Below are positions 1,292 to 4,287 of a DNA stretch of 4,287 nucleotides, piece by piece (the first letter of the stretch is position 1; the number at the start of each line of letters is the position of its first letter). Position numbers and translations under genes: made by a program. The DNA comes from a virus (Duplodnaviria; Heunggongvirae; Uroviricota; Caudoviricetes), in the IMG/VR virus record IMGVR_UViG_2547132274_000008, positions 1 to 4,287 of that record; one strand, written 5' to 3'. A model generated the notes under the pieces. It searched no databases. It saw nothing but the letters and a program-made list of their open reading frames with translations, and was not told the origin of the DNA.

Positions 1292-1838
1292 CGGGGAAGC
1301 CATTCTGCTGCGCAACATCACCGTCAGCGCCACCATGCAACTACCGGACAAAGATATGTCCGGACAGTCAACCAGCACCACGAGCGCCCAGCAGGGAAAC
1401 AAGGCTAAAGAGCTGCGCGTGTCGGGGGTTATTGATTTTAACGATGAAGCTATTCTGACCCGTATTTTTCAGCTTGCGGAGGCAACAGAAAGCAACGGTG
1501 CCAAAAAAACATATCGCATTGCTAACGCTACCGCGAAGGCAATCAATATGCGACAGGGGGTGTTTTCTGGTGGCATTGATGCCACGGAACAACAGGGAAA
1601 AATGCACTGGCAGATCACCTTTACTCTCAGGGAAAAATTAAGCGTGCCAGAGAAAGCATCCGCACGCAGCGGTTCGCAGAAAACCATCGCCAGACAGCAG
1701 ACCCAGAATGGCAGCGAACAGGTACCAGACAAAGGCATGAATACGCAAAGTTCGTTCTGGAAAAAAATCAATGATGCCGTTGGCTCTGGTCTGGATGCTG
1801 TTGGCATCGGGAGCGTGAAAGAGGAAGGGAAAACATGA
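1263..1838 (+). CDS. Hypothetical protein (191 aa); no recognisable family
   Basis: ATG 1263 is preceded by a strong SD (AAGGGGAG, 6-nt spacer). Codon usage is typical of enterobacterial coding sequence. The TGA stop at 1836-1838 overlaps the next start (ATGA at 1835-1838). The protein is hydrophilic and Q/S/T/K-rich, with no motif I can assign. Confidence 0.7.
   Translation: MTQMIVLALDGEAILLRNITVSATMQLPDKDMSGQSTSTTSAQQGNKAKELRVSGVIDFNDEAILTRIFQLAEATESNGAKKTYRIANATAKAINMRQGVFSGGIDATEQQGKMHWQITFTLREKLSVPEKASARSGSQKTIARQQTQNGSEQVPDKGMNTQSSFWKKINDAVGSGLDAVGIGSVKEEGKT
1821..1830 (+). promoter_or_regulatory. Shine-Dalgarno site (GAGGAAGGGA) for the ORF starting at 1835
   Basis: Purine-rich GGAAGG/AGGGA run 4-6 nt upstream of ATG 1835. 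Confidence 0.55.
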
Positions 1839-3532
1839 AATTGATACAACGCTGCATGATTAATGGCGAACGGGTGGAAATTGCCGATATAAGCCTTGTT
1901 CTTACCCTGAATGCTGCCGGTCGTGGCTTCATTTCTGTTAACAATCTGTCACCCGAACACAGCCTTGCCGGCGCAATGGTACAAATTGATCTCGGCCGTG
2001 ACGGTGAAGCATGGCGCTATTTCTCCGGCTACATTGAGCGCGATCAACCTGCTGAAAATGGCTCACGTCGCCTTTTTATTCGTGAAGCGGCTGCTGTGCT
2101 GGATTTTGATTTCCCCTGCTCCATGCAACACCCGACGTTGCGGGGGGTACTCGATAATCTGGGGCGACAAAGCGGTATCGTTTTTATCACTCCGGATGCG
2201 GATTATGCCAGTATACCAACTCCCTACATCACCCACAGCGGCAGCGGAGCACAACTGCTCAGCCAACTGGGGCGAGCATTCAGTATCAGCGATTACGTCT
2301 GGCACCCTATGCCGGACGGTTCTGTATTTGTGGGAAGCGCAGCTGATTCACGATTTGCCAGTATTACAATGCCGGATATTCCGCAACAGTACACACTCGG
2401 GCAAAGCGGCGGAAACAGCATCGACATCATGTTTATGGAAACTGTGCGACCGGGCGTGAACCTACCGGCCGGGCGCATTACCCGTGTAGCCCTCAACAAC
2501 GAGAAAATGACCCTGACATGGGAGCGCCTTACCGCCACGGGTAACCCTGTTTCCAAATCACCATTACGCAGACAAATGGAAACACAGTTCCCGGAACTGG
2601 CCAGCGGTACGCTACATACCCGGCTGGCGCGCGTCATTGCGCCAACGGAGCCCACCACCCTGGGCGATGTGGCCGACAGTTTCCGCCCACGCTACGCCGT
2701 CGATGTGCAGTTGCTTGATGAGAACGGCAACGATAAAAGCGATACGCCCGTTTACCCGGCAGTACCGCTCCCCGTCCCCATGGCTGGCAGTGAGGCGGGA
2801 TGTTTTGCCTACCCGCCGGCTGGCACCATCGTGGAAATATCCAACATTGAAGGACGACCGGATAAACCTGTCATCAGGCAAATCTTACCCGCTGGTCATA
2901 ACCTGCCTGATGTAAAGCCCGGCGAACAATTGCAACAACAGCGCGCAGAAGTGTTTCAGCGTGTCACGACTGACGGAAGCTGGCACAGAGAAACCGACCA
3001 GCAAATCAGGGAGCATTCAGCCAGGCGAACCATTAACAGCGATCAGGAAGAACGCACAACAACAACCAGAACAACAACAGTACAGGCAAACGACATAACC
3101 AGCGTTCTGGGAACCAGCAAGCTGATGACAGGTCAGACAGAACACATTACTACTGGCCATTATGCGATCGCAGCCGGTGAGCATATCCAGATGGTAGCGC
3201 AGGATTTGCTGACTAAACTCAAAGGGGCGACATCCACCATCGAGCATAACCTCACCGAAAACGTGGGAGGCCGCAGAACATGCCGGGCGGACGGCGGCCT
3301 GGAATTTACCGCCCCGACTGTATTTATTGGGCGCGGTGGCTCACGGGAAAAATCCGGACTTAATCTGCTGACGTTGTTGATTGATATTCTGGATCTGGTT
3401 CAGTTGCTGGCCACACACACTGCAAACCACACCCACAGCAACACTGGCGCACCAACAAACAGCAGCGAACTTGCCGCAGACGCCCAACAGGCTACGAGCC
3501 TGCGCGAAAAATACGGCGACCTTATCGCCTAA
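1835..3532 (+). CDS. Hypothetical large protein (565 aa); possibly a phage structural spike/baseplate-like protein or a novel accessory protein; function unassigned
   Basis: Longest ORF in the window. ATG 1835 is coupled to the upstream stop and has an SD. Codon usage is good throughout. The TAA stop at 3530-3532 is followed about 40 nt later by a hairpin with a T-tract. C-terminal features include a Thr-rich stretch ERTTTTRTTTV, a segment with glycines every 7-8 residues (SVLGTSKLMTGQTEHITTGHYAIAAGEH) and the His-rich motif ATHTANHTHSNTG near the end. The embedded overlapping ORFs on both strands are treated as shadow ORFs. Confidence 0.75.
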   Translation: MKLIQRCMINGERVEIADISLVLTLNAAGRGFISVNNLSPEHSLAGAMVQIDLGRDGEAWRYFSGYIERDQPAENGSRRLFIREAAAVLDFDFPCSMQHPTLRGVLDNLGRQSGIVFITPDADYASIPTPYITHSGSGAQLLSQLGRAFSISDYVWHPMPDGSVFVGSAADSRFASITMPDIPQQYTLGQSGGNSIDIMFMETVRPGVNLPAGRITRVALNNEKMTLTWERLTATGNPVSKSPLRRQMETQFPELASGTLHTRLARVIAPTEPTTLGDVADSFRPRYAVDVQLLDENGNDKSDTPVYPAVPLPVPMAGSEAGCFAYPPAGTIVEISNIEGRPDKPVIRQILPAGHNLPDVKPGEQLQQQRAEVFQRVTTDGSWHRETDQQIREHSARRTINSDQEERTTTTRTTTVQANDITSVLGTSKLMTGQTEHITTGHYAIAAGEHIQMVAQDLLTKLKGATSTIEHNLTENVGGRRTCRADGGLEFTAPTVFIGRGGSREKSGLNLLTLLIDILDLVQLLATHTANHTHSNTGAPTNSSELAADAQQATSLREKYGDLIA

Positions 3533-3570
3533 TCACCGGGCATAAAATCCACATAAACGCCCCATCACGC

Positions 3571-3596
3571 AACGCACGGTTCAGGCCGTGCGTTTT
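3571..3596 (+). terminator. Candidate rho-independent terminator for the four-gene operon
   Basis: Inverted repeat AACGCACGG (3571-3579) / CCGTGCGTT (3586-3594) with loop TTCAGG, followed by TTTT (3593-3596) then CAT. The T-tract is short, so this is a moderate-strength terminator at best. Confidence 0.45.
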
Positions 3597-3655
3597 CATA
3601 TCTGCCACCTGATTAATGCGTTCTGCGTGCCATTCCGGCGCTGTATGCGCACACC

Positions 3656-3693
3656 ACGTAAACGGTGTGACGTAAAGCGTGAGGTGACGTAAA
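3656..3693. repeat. Three direct repeats of ACGTAAA (two extended to GTGACGTAAA)
   Basis: ACGTAAA at 3656-3662, 3669-3675 and 3687-3693. The second and third copies share the longer unit GTGACGTAAA (3666-3675 and 3684-3693). Read directly from the sequence. Confidence 0.6.
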
Positions 3694-3799
3694 CCGCGCT
3701 ACCCCCTCCAACCCGCGGGTTTTGTCTCGAAACACTTTTTCAGTTTTCTGCCGTGCAAAAATGACCGCCAGCCCGCGCAGCAACTGAGGGAAAAGCGAA

Positions 3800-4057
3800 G
3801 ATCTGAAATTTCACGTTTTGAAATTTTTTGCAGTTTTCAGAGGGATTTTTACGATCTCATGAATGGCAAGAGAAAGAAAACAGGCTGATATTAAAAGAGT
3901 TTTTATACTTTACGTGGGACAAGACACGATCGCGAAAGGATCGCGTTAAACAACCCTCAAACAAAGAAGCCCGACGTAGCGCGGCCTGCGCAAAATCAAG
4001 AGTCAGAATTAAACTGAAAAAAGGATCAATACCGCGCCTCGATCGCACATGACGATC
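3800..4057. other. Dense cluster of GATC (Dam methylation) sites in non-coding DNA
   Basis: By manual count, GATC occurs at 3800, 3853, 3928, 3939, 4024, 4041 and 4054, which is 7 sites in 258 bp. The preceding roughly 3.8 kb holds 8 sites (474, 1088, 1613, 1988, 2042, 3041, 3166, 3392). Confidence 0.6.
3804..3813. repeat. Perfect 10-bp palindrome TGAAATTTCA with an adjacent TGAAAT half-site copy
   Basis: TGAAATTTCA at 3804-3813 is its own reverse complement. An additional TGAAAT lies at 3819-3824 within an A+T-rich stretch. Operator-like, but no cognate regulator is identifiable. Confidence 0.5.
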
Positions 4058-4074
4058 TACGCAGCAACAGGACG

Positions 4075-4097
4075 AAAAAAACCGGCGCGAACGCCGG
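4075..4097 (-). terminator. Rho-independent terminator on the minus strand
   Basis: Read on the minus strand: stem CCGGCG, UUCG tetraloop, stem CGCCGG, followed by seven T (plus-strand A-run 4075-4081; stems at 4082-4087 and 4092-4097). A GC-rich stem, a classic stable tetraloop and a U7 tract make a textbook intrinsic terminator. Confidence 0.65.
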
Positions 4098-4138
4098 CGG
4101 AAGCATGTATCAAATGCGTGACTGAATAATGTCTGCGG
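4075..4138 (-). ncRNA. Candidate small RNA (about 60-65 nt) between a minus-strand promoter and the minus-strand terminator
   Basis: A sigma70-like promoter on the minus strand (see 4145-4174) would start transcription near plus coordinate 4137-4139, and the strong terminator ends at about 4075. The predicted transcript is 5'-CGCAGACAUUAUUCAGUCACGCAUUUGAUACAUGCUUCCGCCGGCGUUCGCGCCGGUUUUUUU-3'. This is purely a sequence prediction; I do not recognise it as a known sRNA. Confidence 0.2.
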
Positions 4139-4144
4139 TCGGGA

Positions 4145-4174
4145 ATTTTACATCAGAAGGCTGATAAGTCTCAA
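4145..4174 (-). promoter_or_regulatory. Candidate sigma70 promoter on the minus strand (-35 TTGAGA, 18-bp spacer, -10 TAAAAT)
   Basis: On the minus strand, TTGAGA (plus 4169-4174) and TAAAAT (plus 4145-4150) are separated by 18 bp. Each hexamer matches consensus at 5 of 6 positions. Confidence 0.3.
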
Positions 4175-4178
4175 CGGA

Positions 4179-4208
4179 TTGAAACAAGGGAAAAAACCAG
4201 GCTAGAAT
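4179..4208 (+). promoter_or_regulatory. Candidate sigma70 promoter on the plus strand reading out of the window (-35 TTGAAA, 18-bp spacer, -10 TAGAAT)
   Basis: TTGAAA at 4179-4184 and TAGAAT at 4203-4208 with an 18-bp A-rich spacer. The predicted start is near 4215 and the target gene would lie beyond the window end. It sits back-to-back with the minus-strand promoter candidate. Confidence 0.3.
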
Positions 4209-4287
4209 TCGCGCGGGTGCCTTTCGGCTGATGGCTGGAGGGTAAACCCGAAGGCCGGATGTGGAAAGGCCCCGAGTCAACTTTAAC

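What the first reader, a model, noticed from the sequence alone, without database searches (positions are those of the whole stretch)
3533..4287. Unusually long non-coding stretch (about 755 bp) packed with regulatory-looking signals
After the operon terminator there is no credible ORF to the end of the window. The two small ORFs in the track use TTG/GTG starts and lack Shine-Dalgarno sites. The stretch carries direct repeats, a perfect palindrome, an A+T-rich core, a GATC cluster, a convergent minus-strand terminator and back-to-back promoter candidates. It could be a regulatory hub, one or more non-coding RNAs, a recombination or attachment region, or a replication/partition-type site.
Basis: seen in the sequence. 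Interest (0 to 1): 0.45.

Follow-up and report, generated by a model that had tools for sequence, protein, structure and literature searches.

The report
Prophage cos packaging site plus hok/sok
The long gene-free stretch is the DNA-packaging (cos) region of an HP1/P2-type prophage, followed by the start of a hok/sok toxin-antitoxin cassette; this is an ordinary kind of element, but it has a well-conserved, little-described architecture.

Summary
Window 3533-4287 has no credible gene, and its repeats, GATC cluster, terminators and back-to-back promoters are real and mostly non-random. The stretch is not a new regulatory hub.

The window is the right end of an HP1/ESSI-2-type (Peduoviridae) prophage inserted between dmsA and serS. 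In this phage family the cohesive-end site lies 150-300 nt after the last baseplate gene (orf35 homologue). Window 3699-3715 (CTACCCCCTCCAACCCG) aligns with four sets of termini: the experimentally mapped ends of PV94, the annotated ends of phiO18P, and the record ends of ESSI-2 and HP2.

Around this core, a block of about 375 bp (3652-4025) is as conserved as the neighbouring gene. It holds:
- three ACGTAAA repeats upstream of the core;
- an inverted copy of that repeat at +213;
- TTTCAG/TGAAA-type words;
- positionally conserved GATC sites.

These are probably terminase and host-factor binding sites.

Beyond 4025 lies lineage-specific cargo. It comprises a minus-strand terminator with a promoter (a weak candidate for a 65-nt sRNA) and, from 4179, the promoter and 5' leader of a hok/sok module whose hok gene starts 75 nt past the window end.

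Verdict: new member of a known kind, low to moderate interest. The possible Dam dependence of the GATC cluster is the only open point.

The parts
3571..3599 (+). Intrinsic terminator of the late (tail/baseplate) operon: 9-10 bp stem AACGCACGG/CCGTGCGTT followed by TTTTC
   Evidence: Fold -16.1 kcal/mol, z = -3.5. A stem change in relatives gives a G-U pair. SW5, ESSI-2 and HP2 also have a hairpin plus T run just after the orf35 homologue.
3656..3693 (.). Three direct ACGTAAA repeats at -41, -27 and -10 from the cos core; putative terminase (small subunit) binding sites
   Evidence: 0 of 200 shuffles reach the count. Repeats AC(G/A)NAA sit at the same offsets in Edwardsiella, SW5-like and ESSI-like loci, phiO18P, PV94 and HP2.
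3699..3715 (.). Predicted cohesive-end segment (cosN), CTACCCCCTCCAACCCG, ends uncertain by about +/-2 nt. It overlaps the perfect palindrome AACCCGCGGGTT (3710-3721), whose centre is the predicted right nick.
   Evidence: Aligns with PV94 (16-nt 5' overhang shown experimentally, PMC3986222; record ends), the annotated phiO18P cosL/cosR, the 15 nt present at both ends of the ESSI-2 record, and the HP2 and SW5 ends. The core lies 167 nt after the orf35-homologue stop, against 150-300 nt in 66 relatives.
3652..4025 (.). Whole conserved cos block. It contains TTTTTCAGTTTTC (3736-3748), CCGCCAGCCCGCGC (3765-3778), the TGAAA/TTTCAG array (3803-3840), the A+T-rich stretch, and AAACTGAAAAA (4011-4021, an inverted copy of 3736-3746).
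   Evidence: 63% nt identity to Edwardsiella against 60% for the adjacent gene; flanks score 27-38%, which means unalignable. Multiple alignment. TTTKCAG occurs 11 times in the window against 2.2 expected. Inverted repeat I3.
3909..3915 (-). Inverted copy of the ACGTAAA repeat at +213 from the core
   Evidence: An inverted copy sits at +212 to +222 in most lineages, and its word matches the upstream word (ACGTAA/TTACGT here and in Edwardsiella; ACGGAA/TTCCGT in SW5-like loci, phiO18P and HP2).
3800..4057 (.). GATC (Dam site) cluster: sites at 3800, 3853, 3928, 3939, 4024, 4041 and 4054
   Evidence: All seven are invariant in 14 close variants although adjacent bases vary. Positions +156 and +231/+242 are shared with ESSI-like phages. 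GATC is 2.8x over expectation across 44 representatives, against 0.3-1.4x for other same-composition palindromes. There is no enrichment (0.57x) in the phi3-like clade.
4072..4098 (-). Strong minus-strand intrinsic terminator (GCCGGCG-TTCG-CGCCGGT followed by T7)
   Evidence: Nearly invariant in close relatives. Absent from the Edwardsiella loci.
4072..4138 (-). Candidate small RNA of about 65 nt, running from promoter TTGAGA-18-TAAAAT (4174->4145) to the terminator
   Evidence: Promoter scan; fold z = -1.6. Found only in the 41 E. coli genomes that carry this prophage. The -10 element is lost in the L015/L016/L018 variants. No Rfam match. No above-chance pairing with hok mRNA. Weak candidate.
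4179..4208 (+). hok promoter (TTGAAA-18-TAGAAT)
   Evidence: It lies 7 nt upstream of the start of the Rfam 'sok' (hok leader) match.
4215..4287 (+). 5' leader of the hok mRNA, cut by the window end. The Sok antisense RNA would overlap the last 25 nt or so on the minus strand.
   Evidence: Rfam RF01794: 20.2 bits when truncated; 38.6 bits, E 8.6e-7, on the full locus L001 8682-8842, below the gathering score of 59. An annotated Hok/Gef CDS starts 75 nt past the window end. The same 100 nt occur in more than 1000 E. coli genomes and in Stx phages.

Best explanation
The stretch is the cos (cohesive-end, DNA-packaging) region of an HP1/ESSI-2-type temperate myovirus with P2-type terminase, head and replication genes, followed by accessory cargo.

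Reading left to right:
1. The late operon ends at a terminator (3571-3599).
2. Three ACGTAAA repeats abut the cleavage segment (3699-3715). Terminase would make staggered nicks there and leave a 5' overhang of about 17 nt.
3. Some 310 bp follow that hold TTTCAG/TGAAA words, an A+T-rich (probably bent) stretch, an inverted ACGTAAA copy at +213 and GATC pairs. Together these would form the platform on which the small terminase subunit, probably with a host bending protein, assembles.
4. After 4025 comes lineage-specific cargo in the cos-to-attP gap: a minus-strand promoter/terminator unit and a hok/sok type I toxin-antitoxin cassette. The window contains only the cassette's promoter and mRNA leader.

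Shown: the position of the site, its homology to mapped termini, the conservation of the block, and the repeat geometry.

Inferred: which protein binds which word, the exact nick positions, and any role of Dam methylation.
For: **Genomic context.**
- Strain A36 is 98% identical over the stretch. It shows int next to dmsA, then gpA-type replication endonuclease, ogr, portal, large terminase, scaffold, capsid and gpM small terminase, then the tail genes and the orf35 homologue, then this stretch, then hok and serS.
- The window genes are HP1_ORF34 and an orf35-like baseplate protein.

**Position of cos in relatives.**
- In HP2, phiO18P, PV94, SW5 and ESSI-2 the virion ends lie 175-200 nt after the orf35-homologue stop, with attP and int on the other side.

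**Sequence homology to termini.**
- Window GACGTAAACCGCG|CTACCCCCTCCAACCCG|CGGG aligns with phiO18P CACGGAATCCGCG|CTCATCCGCTCCCGCC|TGCGGG (annotated cos), with PV94 (experimental 16-nt 5' overhang, PMC3986222) and with ESSI-2 CTACACCGCACCCGC.
- 66 non-identical IMG/VR relatives carry the core at the same place.

**Conservation and repeat geometry.**
- The 375-bp block is as conserved as the adjacent gene, while both flanks are unalignable.
- The repeat geometry (-41, -27, -10 and inverted at +213) is conserved, with matching words in four clades.

**hok part.**

**Cargo next to cos.** This is a known pattern in P2 and P4 (PMC9122126).
Against: - No virion DNA of this particular phage has been examined, so cleavage at 3699/3715 is inferred by homology.
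- The core differs from the common ESSI-2-type core (CTACACCGCACCCGC) by substitutions and 2-3 extra bases.
- No protein-DNA binding data exist for any of the repeat words, in this phage or, as far as I could find, in its relatives.
- The IHF consensus is not significantly present in the block.
- The Rfam sok score is below the gathering threshold.
- The terminase genes are seen only in near-identical relatives, not in the 4.3-kb window itself.
Confidence: 0.85

Rival explanations
1. The stretch is a regulatory hub that encodes one or more trans-acting small RNAs, in particular a 65-nt RNA on the minus strand (4138->4072).
For: A 10/12 promoter sits 50 nt upstream of a strong terminator with a U7 tail. 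The segment 4075-4137 is almost invariant among close relatives.
Against: - No Rfam family matches.
- The fold z-score is only -1.6.
- The unit is absent from Edwardsiella and all other relatives, and is confined to 41 E. coli genomes.
- The -10 element is lost in the L015/L016/L018 variants, where a recombination boundary at about 4137 separates promoter from terminator.
- There is no above-chance complementarity to hok mRNA.
- At best this explains 70 nt, not the conserved 375-bp block.
Confidence: 0.25
2. The repeats, A+T-rich core and GATC cluster form a replication origin or a partition (parC-like) site for the ParM/ParR system the prophage carries.
For: Iterated words, an A+T-rich stretch and clustered GATC superficially resemble oriC or P1 oriR. 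The A36 prophage encodes ParM and ParR.
Against: - The block sits at a fixed distance from the cohesive-end core in all relatives, including HP2, phiO18P and PV94.
- P2-type gpA initiators use an origin inside gene A; this is stated for PV94 and P2 in PMC3986222.
- parC sites normally lie directly upstream of parM, which is 24 kb away here.
Confidence: 0.04
3. The stretch is the phage attachment site (attP/attR arms).
For: It lies between the last structural gene and the prophage-host junction. In HP2 the attP core (tRNA-like sequence) is only about 440 nt from cos.
Against: - The prophage-host junction lies beyond hok, more than 400 nt past the window end.
- Different cargo separates the conserved block from attP in different lineages, while the block stays tied to the cos core.
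Confidence: 0.03
4. The stretch is a decayed gene (pseudogene remnant).
For: Two ORFs of 56-74 codons exist.
Against: - The ORFs have no Pfam or PHROG similarity.
- Close relatives carry frameshifting 1-nt indels.
- Conservation falls in short words and GATC sites, not in a reading frame.
Confidence: 0.02

Closest known systems
cos sites of HP1-type Peduoviridae: Vibrio phage PV94 (16-nt 5' overhang, mapped experimentally), Aeromonas phage phiO18P (annotated cosL/cosR), Haemophilus phages HP1/HP2, Cronobacter phage ESSI-2
   Same: - Same position, after the orf35 homologue and before attP/int.
- Same pyrimidine-rich core ending in CCCGC(C) at a short dyad.
- Same AC(G/A)NAA repeats at -41, -27 and -10, with an inverted copy near +215.
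- Same TTTTTCAGTTTT word and GATC pairs downstream.
   Different: - The core here (CTACCCCCTCCAACCCG) is 1-3 nt longer and differs in sequence from the ESSI-2, PV94 and phiO18P cores. Its closest counterpart is in Edwardsiella prophages, and the Pseudomonas phi3-like core (CACTTATCCCCCTCCCGCC) also resembles it.
- It has the largest GATC count in the set (7).
- A hok/sok cassette lies between cos and attP.
cos of coliphage P2/186/P4 (19-nt 5' cohesive ends, gpP/gpM terminase)
   Same: - The relative's prophage has the same terminase family.
- The core is G+C-rich with strand-asymmetric composition; read in reverse, P2 GTGCTTTCCCCGCCTCGCC resembles GCGCTACCCCCTCCAACCCGC.
- Accessory cargo accumulates next to cos (PMC9122126).
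   Different: - P2 cos lies next to the portal gene Q, whereas here it lies after the baseplate genes next to attP.
- The flanking repeat words are not shared.
- The resemblance of the cores is by eye only and was not tested statistically.
Bacteriophage P1 pac site (seven TGATCA/G hexamers; cleavage controlled by Dam methylation; needs IHF/HU)
   Same: A packaging site with a cluster of seven GATC sites spread over a few hundred bp.
   Different: - P1 is a headful (pac) phage with unrelated PacA/PacB proteins.
- The GATC context here is RGATC(T/G/A), not TGATCA/G.
- Dependence on methylation is untested.
hok/sok type I toxin-antitoxin loci (plasmid R1 parB; chromosomal and Stx-phage hok homologues)
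   Same: - A promoter is followed by a structured 5' leader starting GGGUGCC.
- A Hok/Gef ORF lies downstream.
- The leader is 87-95% identical to those in Stx phages.
   Different: - Only the promoter and the first 73 nt of the leader fall inside the window.
- The Rfam score is below the gathering threshold.

Membership tests
cos site of HP1/P2-type (Peduoviridae) phages | Lies between the last baseplate gene (orf35 homologue) and attP/int, at the point where virion DNA ends map in relatives | tested here: met
   The core lies 167 nt after the stop codon, against 150-300 nt in 66 relatives.
cos site of HP1/P2-type (Peduoviridae) phages | Sequence homologous to experimentally determined or annotated cohesive ends | tested here: met
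   Alignment with the ends of PV94, phiO18P, ESSI-2, HP2 and SW5. PV94 overhangs were shown by run-off sequencing (PMC3986222).
cos site of HP1/P2-type (Peduoviridae) phages | A cognate P2-type terminase (large subunit plus gpM small subunit) is encoded by the same element | tested here: met
   Seen in the annotated prophage of strain A36, which is 98% identical over the stretch. This cannot be checked in the 4.3-kb window itself.
cos site of HP1/P2-type (Peduoviridae) phages | Staggered cleavage that gives complementary single-stranded ends in virion DNA | not testable with these tools
   Needs virion DNA of this phage.
hok/sok type I toxin-antitoxin | A Hok/Gef-family toxin ORF downstream of the leader | tested here: met
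   RefSeq Hok/Gef CDS at L001 8829-8972, 75 nt past the window end. It is outside the window.
hok/sok type I toxin-antitoxin | hok mRNA leader / Sok region matching Rfam RF01794 at its gathering score | tested here: inconclusive
   38.6 bits against a gathering score of 59, E = 8.6e-7, full model length; 20.2 bits for the part inside the window.
Dam-regulated packaging site (P1 pac type) | Cluster of GATC sites inside the packaging site | tested here: met
   7 GATC in 258 nt, P about 4e-6. Positions are conserved across lineages. Enrichment is 2.8x over 44 representatives.
Dam-regulated packaging site (P1 pac type) | TGATCA/G hexamer repeats and PacA/PacB-type pacase | tested here: not met
   The contexts are AAGATCTG, ACGATCTC, ACGATCGC, AGGATCGC, AGGATCAA, TCGATCGC and ACGATCTA. 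The terminase is of P2 type.
Dam-regulated packaging site (P1 pac type) | Cleavage or packaging depends on the methylation state | not testable with these tools
   There is only an indirect hint: the phi3-like clade (phi3 infects P. aeruginosa) shows no GATC enrichment, 0.57x. Hosts of the IMG/VR loci are unknown.
trans-acting bacterial sRNA | Own promoter, intrinsic terminator, and conservation or covariation of structure | tested here: inconclusive
   A promoter and a terminator are present. However, z = -1.6, there is no Rfam match, the -10 element is not conserved, and the unit is restricted to one lineage.
attP/attR | Contains the core shared with the bacterial attachment site at the prophage-host junction | tested here: not met
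   The junction with serS-side host DNA lies beyond hok, outside the window.

The most novel reading that the evidence does not exclude
The GATC sites in the cos flank are positionally conserved. They may make cos recognition or cleavage by the P2-type terminase sensitive to Dam methylation or to SeqA binding. This would be a cos-phage counterpart of the Dam control of P1 pac, tying packaging to the replication state of the DNA.

The evidence does not exclude this reading:
- The sites are kept while neighbouring bases drift.
- They occur as pairs 11 bp apart.
- They are enriched in clades that include phages of Dam-positive hosts (enterobacteria, Vibrio, Aeromonas, Haemophilus), but not in the phi3-like clade.
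- HP1 itself encodes a Dam methylase.
Probability: 0.2. Interest if true: 0.5.

Novelty: new member of a known kind. Interest (0 to 1): 0.25.

Why it matters
- **Annotation.** It explains an unannotated 0.75-kb gap found in 41 complete E. coli genomes and in many related prophages. It also gives a predicted cos core and a predicted boundary of the cos-adjacent cargo slot, which is useful for prophage annotation, for predicting virion ends and for building cos-based transducing vectors.
- **Testable model.** The family-wide architecture comprises three direct repeats, an inverted copy at +213 and GATC pairs. It offers a concrete model of how P2/HP1-type terminases recognise cos.
- **Open question.** It raises the question of whether Dam methylation gates packaging in a cos phage.

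Tried and rejected
- **Rfam.** A permissive search on both strands found only the sub-threshold sok/hok leader in the finding's stretch; the only other matches were two weak ones in the coding part.
- **Small ORFs.** Pfam and PHROGs gave nothing, apart from phrog_24458 on an ORF antisense to the hok leader. I regard that as a mis-called ORF family.
- **Phage database.** A nucleotide search matched only the last 100 nt, the hok leader shared with Stx phages.
- **IHF consensus.** WATCAANNNNTTR gave no hit inside the conserved block and no more hits than chance.
- **sRNA target.** The sRNA candidate shows no complementarity to hok mRNA or the Sok region beyond shuffled controls.
- **Literature.** A search for the ESSI-2 core sequence found no paper.
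- **Rejected readings.** Origin or partition site, attP and pseudogene are rejected for the reasons given under the rival explanations.
- **Weak repeats.** Direct repeat D1 and inverted repeat I1 (4062-4100 against 4190-4237, 70% identity) were judged to be chance or low-information.
Full report
**1. Checking the observation**

The window carries four plus-strand genes: a DUF4376 protein (6-581), a hypothetical protein (578-1291), an HP1_ORF34 baseplate protein (1263-1838) and a 565-aa orf35-like baseplate/spike protein (1835-3532). Nothing credible is encoded from 3533 to the end.
- The ORFs are short and start with TTG or GTG.
- They have no Pfam or PHROG similarity.
- Close relatives carry 1-nt indels inside them.
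- RefSeq annotates nothing there.

- Plus-strand terminator hairpin at 3571-3594, z = -3.5.
- ACGTAAA three times at 3656-3693; 0 of 200 shuffles reach the count.
- Perfect 12-bp palindrome at 3710-3721.
- A+T-rich core with GC 0.33.
- Seven GATC sites in 3800-4057, P about 4e-6.
- Minus-strand terminator at 4098-4081 followed by a T run.
- Two divergent 10/12 promoter-like sites: minus strand 4174->4145 and plus strand 4179-4208.

**2. Genomic context**

The whole 755 nt occurs in 41 of 5426 complete E. coli genomes. The last 100 nt or so alone occur in more than 1000 genomes and in Stx phages.

In strain A36 (98% identical) the stretch is the right end of a 36-kb prophage inserted between dmsA and serS. 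The gene order is: integrase next to dmsA; gpA-type replication endonuclease; ParM/ParR; ogr; portal; large terminase; scaffold; P2-family capsid; gpM small terminase; tail and baseplate genes; the orf35 homologue; this stretch; a Hok/Gef gene; serS.

The orf35 homologue places the phage among HP1-type Peduoviridae: ESSI-2, SW5/SI7, vB_YenM_324, phiO18P, HP1/HP2, K139/PV94 and phi3.

**3. The core is cos**

In the virion-ended records of HP2, phiO18P, PV94, SW5 and ESSI-2, the orf35 homologue is the last gene. The record ends 175-200 nt after its stop codon, and int follows 600-950 nt after the other end.
- phiO18P has annotated cosL and cosR of 16 nt.
- PV94 has 16-nt 5' overhangs demonstrated by heating, ligation and run-off sequencing (PMC3986222).
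- The ESSI-2 record repeats the 15 nt CTACACCGCACCCGC at both ends.

The window sequence GACGTAAACCGCG-CTACCCCCTCCAACCCG-CGGGTTTT aligns with these junctions:
- phiO18P: CACGGAATCCGCG-CTCATCCGCTCCCGCC-TGCGGG
- PV94: CACGGAATCCGCA-CTCTTCCTCACCCGCC-TGCGCG
- ESSI-2: AAAACGGCA-CTACACCGCACCCGC-CTGCAAGTTTT

Sixty-six non-identical IMG/VR and genome relatives carry such a core 150-300 nt after the gene in all but five loci, where inserted sequence pushes it to 500-650 nt.

In phiO18P and PV94 the right cut falls at the centre of a short dyad (CCCGC-CT-GCGGG). The equivalent dyad here is the perfect palindrome AACCCG|CGGGTT. I therefore predict a cohesive end of about 17 nt at 3699-3715, with an uncertainty of about 2 nt. 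This step is inference by homology.

**4. The conserved block around the core**

A multiple alignment was made of the window, Edwardsiella loci, and ESSI-like and SW5-like loci, whose orf35 proteins are 47-63% identical to the window's. It shows conservation from about 3652 to 4025 and none beyond.

Nucleotide identity to Edwardsiella is 63% in the block and 60% in the orf35 gene. It is 34-36% in the segments on either side, which is the level of unalignable sequence.

The block has a fixed geometry.
- Direct repeats AC(G/A)NAA lie at -41, -27 and -10 from the core.
- An inverted copy lies at +212 to +222 in most lineages, including Aeromonas phiO18P and Haemophilus HP2.
- The word of the inverted copy matches the upstream word: ACGTAA/TTACGT here and in Edwardsiella, and ACGGAA/TTCCGT in SW5-like loci, phiO18P and HP2. 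The ESSI-like clade is more degenerate.
- Between them lie TTTTTCAGTTTT, a G+C-rich CCGCCAGCCCGCGC...CTGG element, an array of TGAAA/TTTCAG words and an A+T-rich stretch. The array words change to TTTGCA in SW5-like phages and to GTGCAA or GTGAA in the phi3-like clade.

A repeated word that changes in step within a lineage is what iterated binding sites of a co-evolving protein would show. The obvious candidate is the small terminase subunit, by analogy with the gpNu1 R sites and the IHF site in lambda cosB (established knowledge). No binding data exist, and the IHF consensus is not detectably present. This assignment is therefore inferred.

**5. The GATC cluster**
- All seven GATC sites are invariant among 14 close variants even where adjacent bases vary.
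- The sites at +156 and +231/+242 are shared with ESSI-like phages, and pairs 11 bp apart recur.
- Over 44 representatives sharing less than 80% identity, GATC is 2.8x over the base-composition expectation. Other palindromes of the same composition are at 0.3-1.4x.
- phiO18P, PV94 and HP2 also have clusters.
- In the phi3-like clade (13 representatives; phi3 infects P. aeruginosa), GATC is at 0.57x.
- HP1 encodes its own Dam methylase (references cited in PMC7556043).
- P1 pac is a precedent: it has seven GATC hexamers and Dam-controlled cleavage (PMC10028697).

Three cautions apply. The sequences are related, so the counts are not independent. The hosts of the IMG/VR loci are unknown. In many phi3-like loci attP follows within 300 nt, so the regions compared are not fully equivalent. 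I treat a Dam link as the most novel reading that is not excluded, not as a finding.

**6. Beyond 4025: cargo**

Relatives diverge completely after the AAACTGAAAA word. In this lineage three more GATC sites follow, two of them shared with Edwardsiella. Then come a strong minus-strand terminator (4098-4072) and, 50 nt to its right, a minus-strand promoter. Together these predict an RNA of about 65 nt.

The evidence for this RNA is weak.
- Fold z = -1.6, and no Rfam match.
- It is absent from Edwardsiella.
- It is restricted to the 41 genomes that carry the prophage.
- In variants L015, L016 and L018 a recombination boundary at about 4137 replaces the promoter side together with a different hok allele, and the -10 element is lost.
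- It has no special complementarity to hok mRNA.

The terminator may simply insulate cos and the late genes from leftward transcription.

From 4179 the sequence is a hok/sok cassette.
- The promoter is TTGAAA-18-TAGAAT.
- The leader starts near 4215 and matches Rfam RF01794 over its full length in the complete locus: 38.6 bits, E 8.6e-7, below the gathering score of 59.
- An annotated Hok/Gef gene starts 75 nt beyond the window.

Edwardsiella prophages carry a hok cassette in the same slot, whereas phi3 carries HicAB and a reverse transcriptase near its cos. This fits the cos-adjacent cargo hotspots described for P2 and P4 (PMC9122126).

**7. Comparison and verdict**

The stretch works like, and is a member of, the cos sites of HP1/P2-type phages. 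The position, homology and cognate-terminase criteria are met. Physical cleavage cannot be tested here.

It is not an attachment site, an origin or partition site, or a pseudogene. It resembles P1 pac only in having a GATC cluster; the hexamer and enzyme criteria are not met.

Novelty: a new member of a known kind. Interest is low to moderate. What the analysis adds is the family-wide architecture of the site and the open Dam question.

Noticed in passing
window 3909-3915, and relatives (L026, L038, L052, L096, L005) at +212 to +222 from the cos core: An inverted copy of the upstream cos repeat sits at a nearly fixed distance from the core, from Haemophilus to E. coli. Its 6-mer matches the upstream repeat word in four clades, which suggests one protein binds on both sides of the cut site.
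   Followed up: partly
L097/L098 (Pseudomonas phage phi3) and L104-L178: The phi3-like clade has an invariant core CACTTATCCCCCTCCCGCC, closer to this window's core than the ESSI-2-type core is. It uses GTGCAA/TTGCA words and shows no GATC enrichment (0.57x). In many of these loci a tRNA-like attP follows within 300 nt.
   Followed up: partly
L011 4880-5175; L012 4790-4930; L097 607-1221; L098 1071-1500: The cargo next to cos differs by lineage: hok/sok in Edwardsiella ictaluri, a truncated hok cassette in E. anguillarum, and HicAB plus a reverse transcriptase in phi3. This looks like a cos-adjacent hotspot of the kind described for P2 and P4.
   Followed up: no
window 4110-4280, minus strand: A 56-codon ORF antisense to the hok promoter and leader matches phrog_24458 (E 5e-9). 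Some Stx-phage records annotate a 'hypothetical protein' there. It is probably a mis-called ORF family over the hok/sok leader.
   Followed up: no
L003 18170-19448 (E. coli A36 prophage): The prophage encodes ParM and a ParR-like protein directly after the gpA-type replication endonuclease. This is unusual for an integrating P2/HP1-type phage and hints at a plasmid-like phase.
   Followed up: no
window 4137/4138, and L015, L016, L018: There is a sharp recombination boundary. To its right, three relatives carry a different hok/sok allele and a different upstream 40 nt; to its left, the sequence is nearly identical. The hok cassette is therefore exchanged as a unit that starts about 40 nt upstream of its promoter.
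   Followed up: partly
window 1835-3532: The orf35-like protein gives weak matches, below Pfam's cutoffs, to Phage_base_V and Gp5_trimer_C. It may be the central spike or puncturing device rather than a generic baseplate protein. One record annotates its homologue as 'head completion protein', which is probably wrong.
   Followed up: no
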